The translations under genes and the position numbers were made by a program. The notes under the pieces were generated by a model. That model searched no databases, was not told where the DNA came from, and saw nothing but the letters and a program-made list of their open reading frames with translations. From Candidatus Saccharimonadota bacterium (GTDB taxonomy: Bacteria; Bacteroidota; Bacteroidia; Cytophagales; Amoebophilaceae), in NCBI RefSeq assembly GCF_003351905.1, contig NZ_CP022339.1, forward strand, positions 840,001-872,000: a stretch of DNA of 32,000 bases, written 5' to 3'. Shown here piece by piece: positions 13,923-20,088 of the stretch (position 1 is the stretch's first letter; every line of letters starts with the position of its first letter).

Positions 13923-13998
13923 AAAACAACTTACTTTTTGTTTAGTCTGATGAAAGCGTTTAATATTTGGTTATTCCTGAGATACATATGCTAGTTAA

Positions 13999-14049
13999 GA
14001 TGTGGAGCTTGTGGATAACTTTGAAAAAGTTATCCATCAAATCCACATC
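13999..14049. repeat. IS110 left-end terminal hairpin (remnant copy)
   Basis: gatgtgga-gctt-gtggataactt-tgaaa-aagttatccat-caaa-tccacatc, with inner and outer stems both complementary. Confidence 0.65.
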
Positions 14050-14335
14050 TTAGAGAAAGGTCTAGATTTGTCGGGTTGCAACCCAAAGATTGTGTTGATT
14101 AAATATTAAAGCTAGCAGGTGACTTGAAGGCAACTGGACTTTAAGTTAATTAATAGTCGAAAACAGAGTAAGTACCTGCTTAGCCTTATTTTTGCTTTGA
14201 ACAAATAGCAGAAGAAGTTGTTACCAACTGTCTTGTACGATAAGAATAAAGAAATATAAATATAATATAAAATGAACACAACACTCGGTTTAGACGTCAG
14301 TAAATACCGTTCAACTTGGGTTTTTTTTAGATCGG
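13999..14335 (+). mobile_element. Truncated IS110-family element (left-end hairpin, 5' leader, about 10-20 transposase codons)
   Basis: The region 14150-14300 aligns with the reverse complement of 19600-19760, for example gaacaaatagcagaagaagttg...ctgtcttgtacgataagaataa...aatataatataaaatgaaca. It encodes MNTTLGLDVSK versus MNRILGLDIGK in the full copy, after which homology is lost. Confidence 0.7.
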
Positions 14336-14610
14336 CTAGAGGCCTATTTGGTCTATTTGAATGTAGTAAGCAAAATAACGCATGCCATGATTCGACCTTG
14401 TATGCGCACTAGAGAGGCCTACTTAGCCGATAATGTAGGCCCTCCTACCACTGAGGCCTCCAAAGAGATAGTAGGGGATGCTTTGCCTGTAAAATAATGA
14501 TGGTAAGGATGCATTTAATGCAATCATGCACGCTATTCAATATTTTTGGTTATTTTTGATCCTATATTGGTCTGCACTTTTGCGACAGCAAAATAAATCA
14601 CCCCTTTAAA

Positions 14611-15828
14611 GTGGCCGTGGTGCCCACTAATAGGGATCAATATAATATTTATATGACAATGGTTTTTAGTATGTTTCGGTTCAGATATTTGTTTTTTATA
14701 TGGTTGTCATTGGCTTCCTTTGCAGGTCTTCGTCGCAATCACCCTACCAGTCAATCTCCCGGTAAGGTAAGCCAGACGACAGGGCGTCCTTTTAACCAGC
14801 CAGATACCCTTTCGGTAGTTCCTTGTAAGGCAAGGCCACCTATTCCAGGTATGGTCTATATTGAGGGAGGGTATATGATCATGGGTAACTTAGGTGAAGA
14901 TAAACTGGGTACAGGGGGTTGTTGTGCCAAGCCTGTTACCGTTAATTCTTTTTGGATGGATGAAACACCTGTTACCAATTTGGCCTATAGAGAATACCTC
15001 TATGATTTGAAACAGCGTGGCTTGATGGAACAATATCAGGCTGCTATGCCCAATCAGCAAGTTTTTATAGAGCACTTTAGCTACAATGACCCATTGGTAG
15101 ACAATTATTTATATGCACCTGGTTTTATGTACTATCCTGTTGTGGGCGTCAGTTGGGAGCAAGCTATGAAATATTGTGCGTGGCGGACCGAGAAACTTCA
15201 TGAGGCGATTAAGAAACGCAAAGGAAGTCCAGTTCCCGATCCTGATCCTGATGCGGGATCCTCGAATGGTGAAGATGAACCAAAGTTTATGGTTCGGTTG
15301 CCTACTGAAGTAGAATTTGAATATGCTGCGCGTGGTGTAGTGGGCGCACCGGATATAAGCTATTTACAAAGTCATCAGCGCAACTACCCTTGGGATGGAT
15401 CTTCTCCAAGAGGAAAAAATGGTCGGTTTTTAGCTAATTTTAAGCGCGGTAAAGGCAATTATAAGGGAATGGCTGGTGAATCTGACCATTCGGCACCAAC
15501 TTCTAACGTCTATGCCTACCCTCCTAATGCAGTTGGTCTTCGCGATATAATGGGTAATGTCTGTTGTTGGACACTTGATACCTATAGGCGCATACAAGAT
15601 ACAAGTGATTTAAATCCAGTTAGGCGTGATGGTTTTTTGGATCCTGCTGCGCACTATAGTGCAACCCATAAGGCTTCCCTGGTGAATGATGATGCAAAAG
15701 TCTATAAAGGCTGTTCTTGGGCAGACTGTGCCTATTTTTTACAAATAGGTACCCGCCGGTATTTGAATAAAGATTCGGCTACGGCTACCATTGGTTTCCG
15801 GTGTGTGGTTTCCAGCTTAGGGCAGTAA
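14611..15828 (+). CDS. FGE-sulfatase (SUMF1) domain protein, GldJ/GldK-like
   Basis: 405 aa. Motifs are GMVYIEGGYMIMG, VTVNSFWMDETPVTNLAYREYL, YYPVVGVSWEQAMKYCAWRT, RLPTEVEFEYAARG, GNVCCW and IGFRCV. The GTG at 14611 is probably too early; ATG at 14653 (MTMVFSMFRFRYLFFIWLSLASFAG, signal peptide) is the likelier start. Confidence 0.65.
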   Translation: MAVVPTNRDQYNIYMTMVFSMFRFRYLFFIWLSLASFAGLRRNHPTSQSPGKVSQTTGRPFNQPDTLSVVPCKARPPIPGMVYIEGGYMIMGNLGEDKLGTGGCCAKPVTVNSFWMDETPVTNLAYREYLYDLKQRGLMEQYQAAMPNQQVFIEHFSYNDPLVDNYLYAPGFMYYPVVGVSWEQAMKYCAWRTEKLHEAIKKRKGSPVPDPDPDAGSSNGEDEPKFMVRLPTEVEFEYAARGVVGAPDISYLQSHQRNYPWDGSSPRGKNGRFLANFKRGKGNYKGMAGESDHSAPTSNVYAYPPNAVGLRDIMGNVCCWTLDTYRRIQDTSDLNPVRRDGFLDPAAHYSATHKASLVNDDAKVYKGCSWADCAYFLQIGTRRYLNKDSATATIGFRCVVSSLGQ

Positions 15829-15850
15829 TAGATGCTGGGTCAGCCTATTT

Positions 15851-16546
15851 TTAGGCTTCTACTACCGCTATGGTGGCAATGCTTACTTGGGCTACACCTG
15901 CCGCTAAAAGCGCATGGGTGCAAGCGGTCAAGGTCGCTCCTGTAGTGAGAATATCATCCACCAGCAGCAGGTGTTTGCCTGCTAGTAAACCTGCGTCTAT
16001 AACTTTAAAGGCATCTTTAAGGTTGGCGATACGTTCTATTTTATTTTTGGTTGTTTGGGAGGGCGTATAACGGGTCCGTGCTATGCATGCTGTGTACAAA
16101 GGCATGTTTAGTGCAGCGGAGAGTCCTTTTGCAAAAAAATCACTCTGGTTATAGCCCCGTTCTTTGAGTCGTTTGGGGTGCAGTGGAACCGCTACAATTC
16201 CATCGATGGATGGCATCATCGGTGCCTGATGTAAGATCTGGCCATAGCGTTGCCCTAGCATCTGTCCGATTTTGGGTTGGTTTTTATACTTCATAGCAAA
16301 GAGTACTTGTTCAAGATGGCTCTTCTTTCTTAACTTGTAAAGCGAAAATCCATAGGCTATGGTCACTTTACCTATAAAGTAGTTGGTAATAAGGTTGTCT
16401 ACTAATGTATGCGCGTTGGTTTCTGGAAATGCACTCAAACAAATGGTACAAACCCATGTTTCTCCCTGAATCAGTTTATGGTTGCATCCCACGCATAGGG
16501 GTGGAAAAAACAAATCCAATAGCCCAGCGATCAATCGTTTCATCAT
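15851..16546 (-). CDS. comF: ComF-family phosphoribosyltransferase-domain protein
   Basis: 231 aa. N-terminal zinc-finger-like FPPLCVGCNHKL...CTICLSAFP and the C-terminal PRTase motif LLLVDDILTTGATL. Confidence 0.8.
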   Translation of the reverse strand: MMKRLIAGLLDLFFPPLCVGCNHKLIQGETWVCTICLSAFPETNAHTLVDNLITNYFIGKVTIAYGFSLYKLRKKSHLEQVLFAMKYKNQPKIGQMLGQRYGQILHQAPMMPSIDGIVAVPLHPKRLKERGYNQSDFFAKGLSAALNMPLYTACIARTRYTPSQTTKNKIERIANLKDAFKVIDAGLLAGKHLLLVDDILTTGATLTACTHALLAAGVAQVSIATIAVVEA

Positions 16547-16593
16547 ATAGAAGTATGTGTTCAGCGCATTGGTTTTTATTAGGCATCTGTTCC

Positions 16594-16634
16594 AATCACT
16601 GGTTTTTTGTCCACTTTTTTATCAAGAAAAAAGC
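16594..16634 (-). repeat. Minimal (about 40 bp) form of the MITE-like repeat, two termini fused
   Basis: aatcactggttttttg + tccacttttttatcaagaaaaaagc joins the two ends of the copy at 26746-26959 through the shared ttttttg. Confidence 0.5.
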
Positions 16635-16644
16635 TATTATCTTA

Positions 16645-17324
16645 CTATGCAAGTTTTTTAGTCATTTTGTACTCGTTTTTGATACTTTTGACGAAGCTTC
16701 TTTTTTGTTGTATAAGCTTATGCGCCAGCTCTAGGAGCTTCCTCATACATGCTACGATAGCCACTTTTTTAGGCTTATATTTACCTACTAATCTATCATA
16801 GCATTCTTTTAAATATAGGAACCACTTTTTCCCTGCTAATACAGCCATATACAGTGCATCTCGTGGTATTTTCCTTCCTCCCCTAATAAATCTTTTTCCC
16901 TGTTTTTTCCCACTATCAGCCGCATATGGTGCTATACCTACTAAAGCTGATAGTTGATTACTACTGTAGCTTCTATCACCTAATTCAGGTAAAAAACTGA
17001 CTAATTTAGTGGCTAAACATTTCCCGATTCCTGGAATGGTTTCTAGTATATTAGCCTTTTCGTCTAGATCCTTATCAGTAGTTATGGTTTTATTTAACGC
17101 TTTATCAATAATTTTTATTTCTTTTTCTAAAAAATCGATATGCCTTTCTATGCTTTCTTTATCTATATTAGTCTGGCTATGGTGTAACCGTTTCTTTTCA
17201 TTGCTTAATGTAGCTACCAGCTCTTCTCTTCTTTGTTGTTGCCTTTTAAGCCGATCTGTTGTAATATAATAGCTGTAATTAGCTTTCAATCCCCTTTCCT
17301 GTCCATAGCGAGCTAGTTTAAAAG
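16645..17324 (-). CDS. IS110-family transposase, exon 2 (C-terminal Transposase_20-type domain)
   Basis: ...LARYGQERGLKANYSYY...LETIPGIGKCLATKLVSFLPELGDRSYSSNQLSALVGIAPYAADSGKKQGKRFIRGGRKIPRDALYM, the typical IS110 C-terminal domain. The frame stays open upstream of the listed TTG start. Confidence 0.8.
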
Positions 17325-17437
17325 GTAGAGTAGAGCACTGGCGCGGTGAAGTATAGGACCAGGTTTATCCGTGTCCATCGTTTCCGATTTCGTGCCTAAA
17401 TAACCCAATCTCTCTTTCCCGTTTCCAGCACCCCCCC

Positions 17438-17475
17438 GTCGCACCGTACGTGAGGTTTTCCCTCATACGGCGCAC
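17438..17475 (-). ncRNA. Group II intron domain V
   Basis: The minus strand reads GUGCGCCGUAUGAGGGAAAACCUCACGUACGGUGCGAC. The canonical sequence is GAGCCGUAUGCGAUGAAAGUCGCACGUACGGUUC, and the two share GCCGUAUG...GAAA...CACGUACGGU. Confidence 0.85.
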
Positions 17476-17496
17476 GGATCGTCTTCTTCGTCTGCA

Positions 17497-18795
17497 TTAC
17501 GTCCATCTGTATCGCACCCGATAAGCTCCTACATTGACTAATTTGTACACTTTGTGGAGCTTCTCGTCGGGGAGTTCCTTATACCCGTTCTTCCTACTCC
17601 CTTTCTTTTTCATGATAAATCTTCTCAGACGCCTGTTTGCATGCCCTTGTACTTTCCTAAATCTCCTAGAACTGGCCGTGTGACGGTAATACTCCGTCCA
17701 CCCCAGTAAGGATGCGTTTAAGTCTTTAACAATAGTTTCAACACTTTCGTGCAACCGGTTCCGATAGGTCAATTGCGTGACTTTCTTAATAATCCGCTTG
17801 ATTGCATCAGGTGTAGGATACATATGGGTAACGGGTTTCTGATATCTTGGCGAGTATCCCCTTTTAAAGGCATACCCTAAGAAATTGAAACCTTCTTCGG
17901 CCGTGGTCATTCGACTCTTTTCTTCATTGATCGAAAGGCCCAAGCGTTGCAGATACCCACATAAAATACCCAAAATCTTCTCTACCGGTTTATTCGACAC
18001 TATCACGAGATCGTCCGCATAGCGGACAATCTGTGCATTCCACCCATTCCTTTCGGTCATCCGCTTGACCCATACTGTGTCTAGCAGATTCAGGTATATA
18101 TTAGAAAGTAAGGGCGAAATGGGGGACCCTTGAGGGGATCCTTGTCGAGTAGCAACTTCTTCGCCTTTAAGGACTCCTGAGCGAAGCCAGGCTTGTATTA
18201 ACTTTAGAACATACCTATCACTGATTCGCTTTTGAATGACTTTCATAAGCTTATCGTGTGGGATTGAGTCAAAGTATCGCTTCAAATCAATATCTAAAAC
18301 TTGGGTGAGCCCGTAATTAAGCCATTTATATATTGATAGACTTGCATGGACTGCGGATCGTTTAGGTCGAAACCCAAATGAGCATTCTTGGAAGTCTGCT
18401 TCAAAAATTGGCTCTATAACAAGACGGGTTGCAGTTTGTACTAAGCGGTCCTTAATCGTGGGCACTCCCAAGATTCTTATTCCTCCTTTCGGTTTGGGTA
18501 TTTCCACGCGCTTTGTCTTATTGCTTCGGTAGCTTCCTGATTCCAGTTCTTTTTGAACTTGTCCAAGAAACGCTTCTTCCCCTTGTTCTTTGATTTGTTC
18601 TATTGTTATTCCATCTATGCCTGGTGCCCCGTGATTTGCACAAACCTGTTTCCATGAACAGACCAGTACGTCCAATCTATATATTTTGTCATGAAGGGTG
18701 TAGAAGCTGCGTTTAGGATTAGACTTAGCAGATCGATAAAGTTCTCGCTGCAGTTCTCGGACGCTTTGTGCCATGTGGTTACCTTGCGGAATCAT
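17497..18795 (-). CDS. Group II intron reverse transcriptase/maturase (no obvious HNH endonuclease domain)
   Basis: 432 aa. Motifs are GAPGIDGITIEQI, RVEIPKPKGGIRILGVPTIKDRLVQ, FGFRPKRSAVHA, LDIDLKRYFDSIPHD, GSPQGSPISPLLSNIYLN, RYADDLVIV (YADD) and a maturase/X region LLGWTEYYRH. Confidence 0.9.
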   Translation of the reverse strand: MIPQGNHMAQSVRELQRELYRSAKSNPKRSFYTLHDKIYRLDVLVCSWKQVCANHGAPGIDGITIEQIKEQGEEAFLGQVQKELESGSYRSNKTKRVEIPKPKGGIRILGVPTIKDRLVQTATRLVIEPIFEADFQECSFGFRPKRSAVHASLSIYKWLNYGLTQVLDIDLKRYFDSIPHDKLMKVIQKRISDRYVLKLIQAWLRSGVLKGEEVATRQGSPQGSPISPLLSNIYLNLLDTVWVKRMTERNGWNAQIVRYADDLVIVSNKPVEKILGILCGYLQRLGLSINEEKSRMTTAEEGFNFLGYAFKRGYSPRYQKPVTHMYPTPDAIKRIIKKVTQLTYRNRLHESVETIVKDLNASLLGWTEYYRHTASSRRFRKVQGHANRRLRRFIMKKKGSRKNGYKELPDEKLHKVYKLVNVGAYRVRYRWT

Positions 18796-19321
18796 GGTAT
18801 CTTTCCCTGTTTTGAAAACATGACGAAACTGAAGATCCTTCGCTCCGGTAAGGTTTTGTTGTCCTTGCCATCTTCACTACTACTATCTTCCCGACTTCCT
18901 GCACAGCATCGGAACGAACTTCGACTTGCGCCTTATATCCTTCCTTACTCTTGGAACTTAAAGACCGTGCAGGATCTCCCACGTTTCTCCTCCTTTCTTT
19001 CCTACGTGCCGCCCCTGCTACGCCGGGAGATAAGTGACGGTTATTGACCTGTTATCTTTCCGTCACTTTACAGCTTTCGCCCACCAGACGAGAGGCTCAG
19101 CATCTCCAATTCCCAGATTTCTCTGGTAAGACCTTCACGGCGCTACATATAGGTTCCTTGCGTACGGCCCGCAGTTTGCGTAGCTCCTTGTACAGAGCCG
19201 TCGTCGAGTGGCTTCATCTACAAAAATTACTCTTTATAGATGCACTCCTCGCTACCTGGCCAACAGGCCTATTGCCAGGGTGGGACTTGCACCCACTAGA
19301 AAGGAGGCCTTCGTGGCACGC

Positions 19322-19619
19322 CATCGTGTTTATCCGTTTTACAGTGGTCTAGAGATTTACTAAATGAACTAAAAGTATATGTATTCACTTGATGTATGTG
19401 TACATTAGCGGCATACAATTTCTCACAAATGGCTCTTTCATATCCCCCAGTTGGTTCACATACTATAATTTTAACAGCTACTTGATCTAAATAATCTATA
19501 AGTTCCTTATGGCCCTGCTCATCGTTACGAAACCTTTTATATACAGATTTAGCCTCTTGACTATAGAAACATGCATCCAGCCATGTTTTCCCTATATCTA
19601 AACCAAGTATTCTGTTCAT
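19322..19619 (-). CDS. IS110-family transposase, exon 1 (N-terminal DEDD domain)
   Basis: MNRILGLDIGKTWLDACF...IIVCEPTGGYERAI...KTDKHD. The read-through into the intron stops after 8 further codons. Exon 1 (298 nt) plus exon 2 (680 nt) is 978 nt, or 325 aa plus stop, with the junction ...KTDKHD-AFKLARYGQ.... Confidence 0.8.
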
Positions 19620-19830
19620 TTTATATTATATTTATTTATATTTCCTTATTCTTATCGTACAAGACAGTTGTAGGCAACTTCTTCTGCTATTTGTTCAAAG
19701 AAAATAAAGGTAAGCAGGTACTTAAGCTTTTTTCGACTATTAACTATATAAAGTCCAGTGGGATACAAGTAACCTGCTACCTTTAAAATACAATCTTTTT
19801 AAATCTTAACTACATCTAGAATCTTTCTTA

Positions 19831-19877
19831 AGCTGTGTTTTTGATGGATAACTAAAGTTATCCACAAAACCACAGCT
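19831..19877. repeat. IS110 left-end terminal hairpin (full copy)
   Basis: agctgtg-ttttt-gatggataac-taa-agttatccac-aaaac-cacagct. The architecture is the same as at 13999-14049, but the outer stem has a different sequence. Confidence 0.65.
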
Positions 19878-20088
19878 TACCTACTACTATTTTTTACTAT
19901 AAATTGAATATGATTCAAGCTACATCTATAGCTATATCTATCTAGTGCTAAGATATAAGTGGGATAAAATGCATTATTAACCAGTAACGTTGTGAACAGA
20001 TACATATAGAAATGCGTATGCTATGGGTTGTTTACAGTGTAGTAGGTAGATTCCTTCTGAATTTAATATATTTTAAATCTATTTTTAT

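What the first reader, a model, noticed from the sequence alone, without database searches (positions are those of the whole stretch)
16635..19880. Nested mobile elements: a group II intron interrupts the DEDD domain of an IS110 transposase, and in-silico splicing restores an intact 325-aa ORF
Seen in sequence: transposase exon 1 ends ...KTDKHD, inside the conserved IS110 KTDxxDA motif. About 2.0 kb follows, carrying an RT/maturase (YADD), a near-consensus domain V and a 3' ...CUAC end. The frame then resumes as ...AFKLARYGQERGL..., continuing through the Transposase_20-type domain. Joining 19322 to 17324 gives 978 nt in frame.

Inference: transposase production, and so IS mobility, would depend on intron splicing, one selfish element gating another. 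The intron 5' end is atypical (GCGUGCC, with GUGCC 2 nt further in). Choosing the GUGCC start together with the CUAC end breaks the frame, so the exact boundaries and splicing competence are open.
Basis: partly seen in the sequence, partly recalled or inferred. Interest (0 to 1): 0.6.

Follow-up and report, generated by a model that had tools for sequence, protein, structure and literature searches.

The report
Intron lineage homing into IS110 recombinases
A self-splicing mobile intron has cut an RNA-guided jumping gene (IS110) right after its last catalytic codon; its relatives sit at the same codon of very different IS110 genes in many bacteria, so this is a known kind of nested parasite with a host family for which I found no description.

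Summary
Observation confirmed; boundary question settled. A 1,997-nt group II intron (19321-17325, minus strand; intact 432-aa RT/maturase, no endonuclease) splits an IS110 recombinase at GATG|C. The join 19322|17324 gives 325 aa and aligns gap-free at the junction with intron-less homologues (KTDKHD|AFKLA). The GCGUG start is a lineage trait (relatives: GCGUG, GCGCG, GUGUG), not a defect.

New here: the intron's RT clade (48-100% identity) occupies the same K-[TNS]-D-x-x-D|A codon in IS110/IS1111 hosts mostly 20-30% identical. Identical introns sit in different hosts, and two off-target genes mimic the DNA motif. Invariant EBS1 (CGUC), EBS3 (G) and a likely 3-nt EBS2 (GUC) read the two catalytic Asp codons with wobble. 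The IS carries bridge-RNA guides for a Cardinium repeat; a relative has the empty site.

Splicing-gated transposition is plausible but untested, with precedent (RmInt1, E.c.I4, Ll.LtrB). The genome matches Cardinium cSfur, a short-read assembly. Its hybrid IS copies and copy counts are probably mis-joins at intron repeats.

The scan reported IS110 homing before on another copy in this genome.

The parts
16632..19959 (-). IS110 element ('IS110-a') including the intron, bounded by CT core dinucleotides at 19959-19958 and 16633-16632
   Evidence: Empty site TATCCCA-CT-TTTTTC at the syntenic position in relative G006; cores located
19620..19957 (-). Left non-coding end carrying a putative bridge RNA
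   Evidence: Two internal-loop hairpins in the fold (z only -1.8); guide matches below
19711..19779 (-). Target-binding loop: left guide UAUCCCACU (19765-19757), right guide GAAAAAAG (19734-19727)
   Evidence: Both match the target repeat; 0 of 20000 dinucleotide shuffles of the left end held both
19651..19691 (-). Putative donor-binding guides AAUAGC (19691-19686) and AUAAG (19655-19651)
   Evidence: [quoted passage not shown]
19322..19619 (-). Recombinase exon 1: codons 1-99 plus 1 nt; holds D8, E56, D96, D99
   Evidence: Pfam PF01548; alignment to intron-less homologues
17325..19321 (-). Group II intron, 1997 nt, GCGUG...CUAC, class-F-like
   Evidence: Rfam RF02003 and RF00029; six full copies in the assembly, five identical and one with a single difference; relatives with the same ends
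19262..19268 (-). alpha (pairs with alpha' at 19053-19047 in a terminal loop)
   Evidence: Complementary and co-varying in the alignment; inferred
19130..19132 (-). Putative 3-nt EBS2 (GUC), complementary to exon -13..-11 GAY (Asp96 codon)
   Evidence: Invariant in 12 clade introns; the equivalent segment pairs with the exon in two outgroup introns; inferred
19087..19091 (-). delta U (19091) and EBS1 CGUC (19090-19087), complementary to exon -4..-1 GAYG
   Evidence: Invariant in clade; the same loop changes with the exon end in outgroups: CAUG/CAUG, UCCU/AGGA
19078..19078 (-). EBS3 G, pairing with exon +1 C
   Evidence: Invariant; +1 is C at every junction read
17497..18795 (-). Intron-encoded RT/maturase, 432 aa, YADD, no En domain
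   Evidence: Pfam and TIGR04416; dN/dS 0.07-0.10 against four relatives
17441..17473 (-). Domain V, 33 nt, CGC triad, 5-nt loop
17328..17438 (-). Long domain VI with bulged branch A at 17331 (-7)
   Evidence: Basal stem with compensatory changes; A invariant in 15 introns
16645..17324 (-). Recombinase exon 2: coiled coil and Tnp domain with catalytic Ser237
   Evidence: Pfam PF02371; 73-77% identical to intron-less homologues
19960..20003 (-). Left half of the dispersed ~270-bp Cardinium repeat that IS110-a targets
16570..16631 (-). Right part of the target repeat, internally shortened relative to G006

Best explanation
A recently acquired, intact, class-F-like group II intron belongs to a lineage specialised on IS110-family recombinase genes. 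It recognises the DNA motif AARAMNGAY-N6-GAYG|C, which encodes K-[TNS]-D-x-x-D|A. Inferred mechanism: EBS1 CGUC reads the last catalytic Asp codon plus the next G. A short EBS2 GUC reads the preceding catalytic Asp codon. G-U wobble lets both accept GAU or GAC. EBS3 reads +1 C, and the protein probably reads the AARA of the Lys codon. Lacking an endonuclease, it would retrohome at transient single-stranded DNA (inferred from RmInt1). Because this motif is held in place by IS110 catalysis, the intron finds a target in very divergent IS110/IS1111 elements. In this symbiont it entered two IS110 families and one look-alike gene. The window copy lies in an IS621-like element guided to a dispersed repeat. 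Full-length recombinase can only come from spliced RNA, so the intron probably dampens the IS. Shown: anatomy, junction, target convergence. Inferred: splicing, homing chemistry, effect on the IS.
For: Junction matches intron-less homologues and empty sites. Of 19 tabulated sites, 16 are IS110, 1 is an IS110-like remnant and 2 are off-target genes that keep the distal motif. Positions -19, -18, -13, -12, -4, -1 are invariant. IS110 flanks 18 of 26 informative loci with RT identity >=55%, against 2 of 90 below; those two form the sister clade and use the same codon. The clade has 100/100 support, 97/94 with the sister. Hosts are mostly 20-30% identical, 40-65% within the IS1111 group. Identical introns occupy different hosts: L161/L162 0 differences; L022/L023/L025 0-1; IS110-a/IS110-b here. 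The EBS1 loop co-varies with the exon end in outgroups. RT is under purifying selection.
Against: No RNA or mobility data. The IBS1 pairing is only 4 bp and EBS2 is a 3-bp inference. Much of the DNA motif follows from protein conservation, so DNA-level reading of the distal part rests on two off-target sites. Loci are redundant and related, so the counts are not independent. Eight clade loci lacked an IS110 hit (short, truncated, off-target or degraded). Class F was not placed against named reference RTs (searches failed).
Confidence: 0.8

Rival explanations
1. The intron entered an ancestral IS110 once and was inherited with it; there is no active motif-specific homing.
For: All complete IS110-a copies in this genome carry it.
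Against: Identical introns lie in hosts about 27% identical and in non-IS110 genes. Close homologues of IS110-a and IS110-b are intron-less.
Confidence: 0.03
2. The intron is splicing-deficient in this host (U2>C, 4-bp IBS1), so IS110-a is simply inactivated; the copies arose by retrohoming into IS copies that had already spread.
For: Non-consensus second base, short pairing, no intron-free IS copy. Introns generally lower host-gene output (PMC6003770).
Against: GCGYG is widespread in this clade and in a distant multi-copy intron (L042-L045). Recent spread to three different sites requires excised intron RNA. RT, domain V and branch A are intact.
Confidence: 0.12
3. A functional two-element switch: regulated splicing controls when the IS110 moves, and the IS carries the intron as cargo to new repeat copies.
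For: IS110-a ends with the intron are seen at four to five different copies of the target repeat and are identical in sequence; the bridge-RNA region is untouched.
Against: The order of events cannot be read, the copy structure is unreliable in this assembly, and no regulation was tested.
Confidence: 0.2
4. The hybrid copies elsewhere in the genome (IS110-b or lipoprotein exon 1 joined to IS110-a exon 2) are real products of recombination between intron copies, giving in-frame chimeric recombinases.
For: Present in the assembly at 234.6, 315.9 and 875.5 kb; same codon and phase in all hosts makes swaps in frame; mate-pair libraries reached 40 kb (PMC6147030).
Against: Short-read assembly with GapFiller (PMC6147030). 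Relative G006 pairs the flanks differently at four sites, e.g. the 875-kb left flank with the 1052-kb right flank, which restores IS110-b on both sides. Re-joining turns an 84:16 GC-skew split into 44:56. One fill is 864 nt where the true IS110-b 3' part is 867 nt.
Confidence: 0.25

Closest known systems
E.c.I4 (class A) in IS3-family elements IS629, IS911, ISEc16, ISEc31 (PMC3522654)
   Same: One intron homing to a fixed position in transposase genes of several related IS elements; recent bursts; near saturation of sites
   Different: Different RT class and IS family. Here a whole clade down to 48% RT identity keeps one site in DEDD recombinases spanning the IS110 and IS1111 groups.
RmInt1 in ISRm2011-2 (class D, En-minus; PMC4615759)
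   Same: En-minus intron whose natural target is an IS; splicing level proposed to limit host IS mobility
   Different: Longer EBS pairing. Its close relatives switched targets (RmInt2 to ISRm17 inverted repeats, Sr.md.I1 to IS66), whereas this clade holds one motif.
Class F / g2-g4 / unclassified En-minus introns (PMC3552965, PMC3753933)
   Same: No En domain, about 2.0 kb, 430-445-aa RT, alpha' in a terminal loop, 5-nt domain V loop, long domain VI
   Different: EBS1 only 4 nt, CGC triad, frequent GCGYG start. YADD rather than the FADD of g2. Table S2 of PMC3552965 names no IS110 host.
IS621 bridge recombinase system (PMC11208160, PMC11208158)
   Same: DEDD plus Ser architecture (D8/E56/D96/D99/S237 against D11/E60/D102/D105/S241), CT core, guides in the left end, repeat target, TTGCAT-17-TATCTT promoter-like junction on circularisation
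   Different: Gene is split by an intron; target is a Cardinium repeat; activity untested
Ll.LtrB in the pRS01 relaxase gene (PMC6003770)
   Same: Intron inside the mobility gene of another element, lowering its expression
   Different: Class ML with En domain; plasmid relaxase; effect measured there and not here

Membership tests
Group II intron | Domain V with catalytic triad and bulge | tested here: met
   RF00029 above gathering score; CGC triad
Group II intron | Domain VI with bulged A and AY end | tested here: met
   A at -7 invariant in 15 introns; ends AC; compensatory pairs
Group II intron | 5' end GUGYG | tested here: inconclusive
   GCGUG, one deviation; clade members show GUGUG, GCGUG, GCGCG at the same register
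Group II intron | EBS-IBS pairing to flanking exons | tested here: met
   EBS1 CGUC/GAYG and EBS3 G/C; EBS1 loop co-varies in outgroups
Group II intron | Intron-encoded RT/maturase | tested here: met
   TIGR04416 375.7 bits, cut-off 300
Group II intron | Splicing and retrohoming activity | not testable with these tools
   Indirect only: identical copies at three distinct targets
Class F (IIF) introns | No En domain; alpha' in terminal loop; 5-nt domain V loop; long domain VI | tested here: met
   against the description in PMC3753933
Class F (IIF) introns | RT groups with named class F / g2-g4 references | not tested
   Reference records not held; tree has no named references
Class C (IIC) introns | Insertion after terminator hairpins; small RNA without the extra domain I elements | tested here: not met
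   Inserts in coding motif; 526 nt of RNA before the ORF; has alpha' arm and long domain VI
IS110 (IS621-like) | DEDD RuvC domain plus Tnp domain with Ser | tested here: met
   After the join
IS110 (IS621-like) | Core dinucleotide at both ends, no target duplication beyond it | tested here: met
   CT core; empty site in G006
IS110 (IS621-like) | Bridge RNA with target and donor guides | tested here: inconclusive
   Target guides clear (0/20000 shuffles); donor guides partial; fold z -1.8
IS110 (IS621-like) | Circular intermediate and RNA-guided recombination | not testable with these tools
   Needs experiment

The most novel reading that the evidence does not exclude
An old, so far undescribed intron lineage is a dedicated parasite of bridge recombinases. 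It reads the two catalytic Asp codons with wobble-tolerant GUC triplets, so hosts can hardly escape by synonymous change. It lowers IS110 activity in cis, and perhaps in trans by re-attacking spliced mRNA. Because it always sits at one codon in one phase, it can act as a crossover point that swaps RuvC and Tnp halves between distant IS110s.
Probability: 0.2. Interest if true: 0.65.

Novelty: new variant of a known kind. Interest (0 to 1): 0.42.

Why it matters
Group II introns hiding in IS transposases are known. A clade that keeps one catalytic-motif address across the whole IS110/IS1111 family is a clean natural case of a retroelement tracking a protein-constrained DNA motif with minimal base pairing. 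It gives a testable targeting rule and a small En-minus intron with a short recognition site. It matters for bridge-recombinase mining, since split genes are missed or mis-called but can be restored exactly. It shows an intron shared at 83% nucleotide identity between Cardinium and amoeba-symbiont Alphaproteobacteria. It also flags probable mis-joins in a reference Cardinium genome.

Tried and rejected
GUGCC start 2 nt inside the intron: rejected; it breaks the frame or adds a residue, and disagrees with homologues and empty sites.
Class C assignment from the CGC triad: rejected (see membership).
The conserved CAGUUUCG after domain III as an EBS for the Lys/Thr codons: rejected, it is the domain IV basal stem. 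The 10-nt match between exon 1 and the domain VI loop is not conserved.
3' transduction as the cause of the hybrid copies: rejected, the original 3' exons do not follow the transduced-looking segment.
Named class F references were not retrievable; PMC2525955 is not held.
Pattern searches of 400 phylum genomes and of viral contigs gave only chance matches.
No close RT relative (best 43%) in the 40 related genomes searched. An independent Logan contig has the same RT but ends 1 nt after the intron, so it does not check exon pairing.
A first codon comparison was out of frame and is replaced.
Literature searches found no description of IS110-motif homing; the library lacks most subscription papers and the Zimmerly intron database could not be searched.

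Full report
1. Observation. On the minus strand an IS110 ORF starts at 19619 and reads to ...KTDKHD. Unspliced, it stops 8 codons later. A 432-aa RT/maturase follows at 18795-17497 (RVT_1, GIIM, TIGR04416). Rfam finds domain I at 19298-19158 and domains V/VI at 17475-17325. Joining 19322 to 17324 gives 978 nt and 325 aa. Intron-less homologues read KTDKHD|AFKLA with no gap and are 66-68% identical to exon 1 and 73-77% to exon 2. The identical intron also follows a second IS110 ('IS110-b', 27% identical), whose empty site GATG|C is seen at 571 kb and in three relatives. The intron is therefore 19321-17325 and starts GCGUG.

2. Source. The genome's size and GC (1,103,593 bp, 39.2%) equal those of Cardinium cSfur, assembled from short reads with SOAPdenovo2, SSPACE and GapFiller (PMC6147030). 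No close RT relative was found in 40 related genomes (best 43%). The nearest are metagenomic contigs (88-90%) and Ca. Paracaedimonas/Caedibacter acanthamoebae (85% protein, 83% DNA over the whole intron). This points to recent horizontal acquisition (inference). dN/dS is 0.07-0.10.

3. Intron anatomy. Domain V is 33 nt with a CGC triad and a 5-nt loop. Domain VI is long, with compensatory pairs and an invariant bulged A at 17331. Alpha' lies in a terminal loop. These are the features listed for IIF introns (PMC3753933); the RT was not placed against named references. The Id3 loop U-CGUC (19091-19087) and G19078 are invariant and fit EBS1 against GAYG and EBS3 against +1 C. In outgroup introns the same loop reads CAUG or UCCU and their exons end CAUG or AGGA, which supports the assignment. 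An invariant GUC (19132-19130) lies where outgroups carry an exon-complementary segment and can pair with GAY at -13..-11. So both Asp codons of the DxxD motif would be read by GUC, wobble allowing either codon (inference). Starts in the clade are GUGUG, GCGUG and GCGCG.

4. A lineage that homes to IS110. The RTs form a clade (100/100; 97/94 with a 48%-identical sister). Nineteen sites give the consensus AARAMNGAY-N6-GAYG, followed by C wherever the 3' side was read. Sixteen are IS110 or IS1111 recombinases split at K-[TNS]-D-x-x-D|A, one is a degraded IS110-like site and two are off-target genes: an RluA synthase and a cSfur lipoprotein-like ORF. Both off-targets keep the distal motif, which argues for DNA-level recognition. 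IS110 flanks 18 of 26 informative loci at >=55% RT identity against 2 of 90 below, and those two are the sister clade. The loci are redundant, so this is a description and not a test. Hosts are mostly 20-30% identical while identical introns sit in different hosts, which excludes co-inheritance. In cSfur only two strict free sites remain.

5. The host IS. It runs 19959-16632 between CT cores. G006 has the empty target between the same genes, and about 30 empty targets remain in a dispersed repeat. The left end holds a hairpin whose internal loop carries UAUCCCACU and GAAAAAAG, matching both sides of the target; no shuffle of 20000 held both. Residues D8, E56, D96, D99 and S237 correspond to IS621 D11, E60, D102, D105 and S241, all essential (PMC11208158). 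The intron separates the four acids from the serine, so unspliced RNA cannot give an active enzyme. No intron-free IS110-a is in the assembly.

6. Copies and a caveat. Six full copies and one 3' fragment exist. All six are followed by IS110-a exon 2, although three have foreign 5' exons. G006 pairs the flanks differently at four sites; the 875-kb left flank (IS110-b exon 1) belongs with the 1052-kb right flank (IS110-b exon 2). Re-joining on that basis, with one further segment reversed because flank polarity forces it, changes the GC-skew split from 84:16 to 44:56. Mis-assembly is the likelier cause; recent real recombination is not excluded. The window's own pairing is supported by synteny on both sides, by the homologues and by the IS ends.

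7. Mechanism. Shown: anatomy, junction, convergence on one codon. Inferred: splicing with the maturase, En-independent retrohoming, dampening of the IS. Whether the composite has moved as a unit cannot be read from this assembly.

8. Comparison. Introns homing into IS transposases are known: E.c.I4 in several IS3 elements (PMC3522654) and RmInt1 in ISRm2011-2, with the suggestion that splicing limits IS mobility (PMC4615759). Ll.LtrB represses its relaxase host (PMC6003770), and hiding in mobile elements is general (PMC7306698). I found no paper on homing to the IS110 DEDD motif, within a limited library. The scan's own notes report it on another copy in this genome and on plasmid loci that look like L022/L023; these are not independent support. 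One note treats a hybrid copy as real, which the synteny evidence questions.

9. Verdict. Real and correctly called; a new variant of a known kind. Interest 0.42.

Noticed in passing
G000 whole genome; intron copies at 234.6, 315.9, 339, 584, 859, 875.5 and 1052 kb: Flanks are permuted across intron copies relative to G006. Re-joining gives a balanced GC skew (44:56 against 84:16). The published cSfur chromosome order is probably mis-assembled at these repeats.
   Followed up: partly
window 14304-16631 and G000 579057-581353: The gldJ-like and comF genes are duplicated with no mismatch behind two IS copies. In G006 the block continues as in the 579-kb copy, so the window's junction at 14304 may be a mis-join.
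   Followed up: partly
window 13992-14294 (+): Inverted, truncated IS110-a-like remnant (79%): left end plus about 11 codons.
   Followed up: partly
window 19950-20003 and 16570-16633; about 46 long copies in G000, dozens in G006 and G014: A ~270-bp MITE-like repeat with terminal GTATCTGTTCA...TGAACAGATAC and an internal palindrome; about 30 empty IS110-a targets remain. It looks different from the IS982-derived MITE described for cOegib, but this was not compared.
   Followed up: partly
L025:1974-3973: In Ca. Paracaedimonas acanthamoebae the intron splits an RluA-family pseudouridine synthase gene at a KKNDSLD|A mimic, in frame on splicing.
   Followed up: partly
G000 315421-315931: Third cSfur target: a lipoprotein-like ORF with weak ankyrin similarity ending KKDIKD; its 3' half was not found in the assembly.
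   Followed up: partly
L022:1974-3973: Plasmid copy lacks one G at the 5' junction and has an extra A at the 3' end; sequencing error or imprecise insertion.
   Followed up: no
G000 119340 and 210943: Two IS110-b-type 3' halves begin 2-3 nt after the intron insertion position with unrelated sequence upstream.
   Followed up: no
L042-L045: A distant multi-copy Neobacillus intron also starts GCGUG and inserts after terminator-like U-runs although its RT groups apart from this clade.
   Followed up: no
G000 806, 308, 226, 231 and 313 kb: Five other, more distant group II RTs or fragments in this 1.1-Mb genome.
   Followed up: no
window 5182-5611 (-): Three tRNA genes (Rfam).
   Followed up: no
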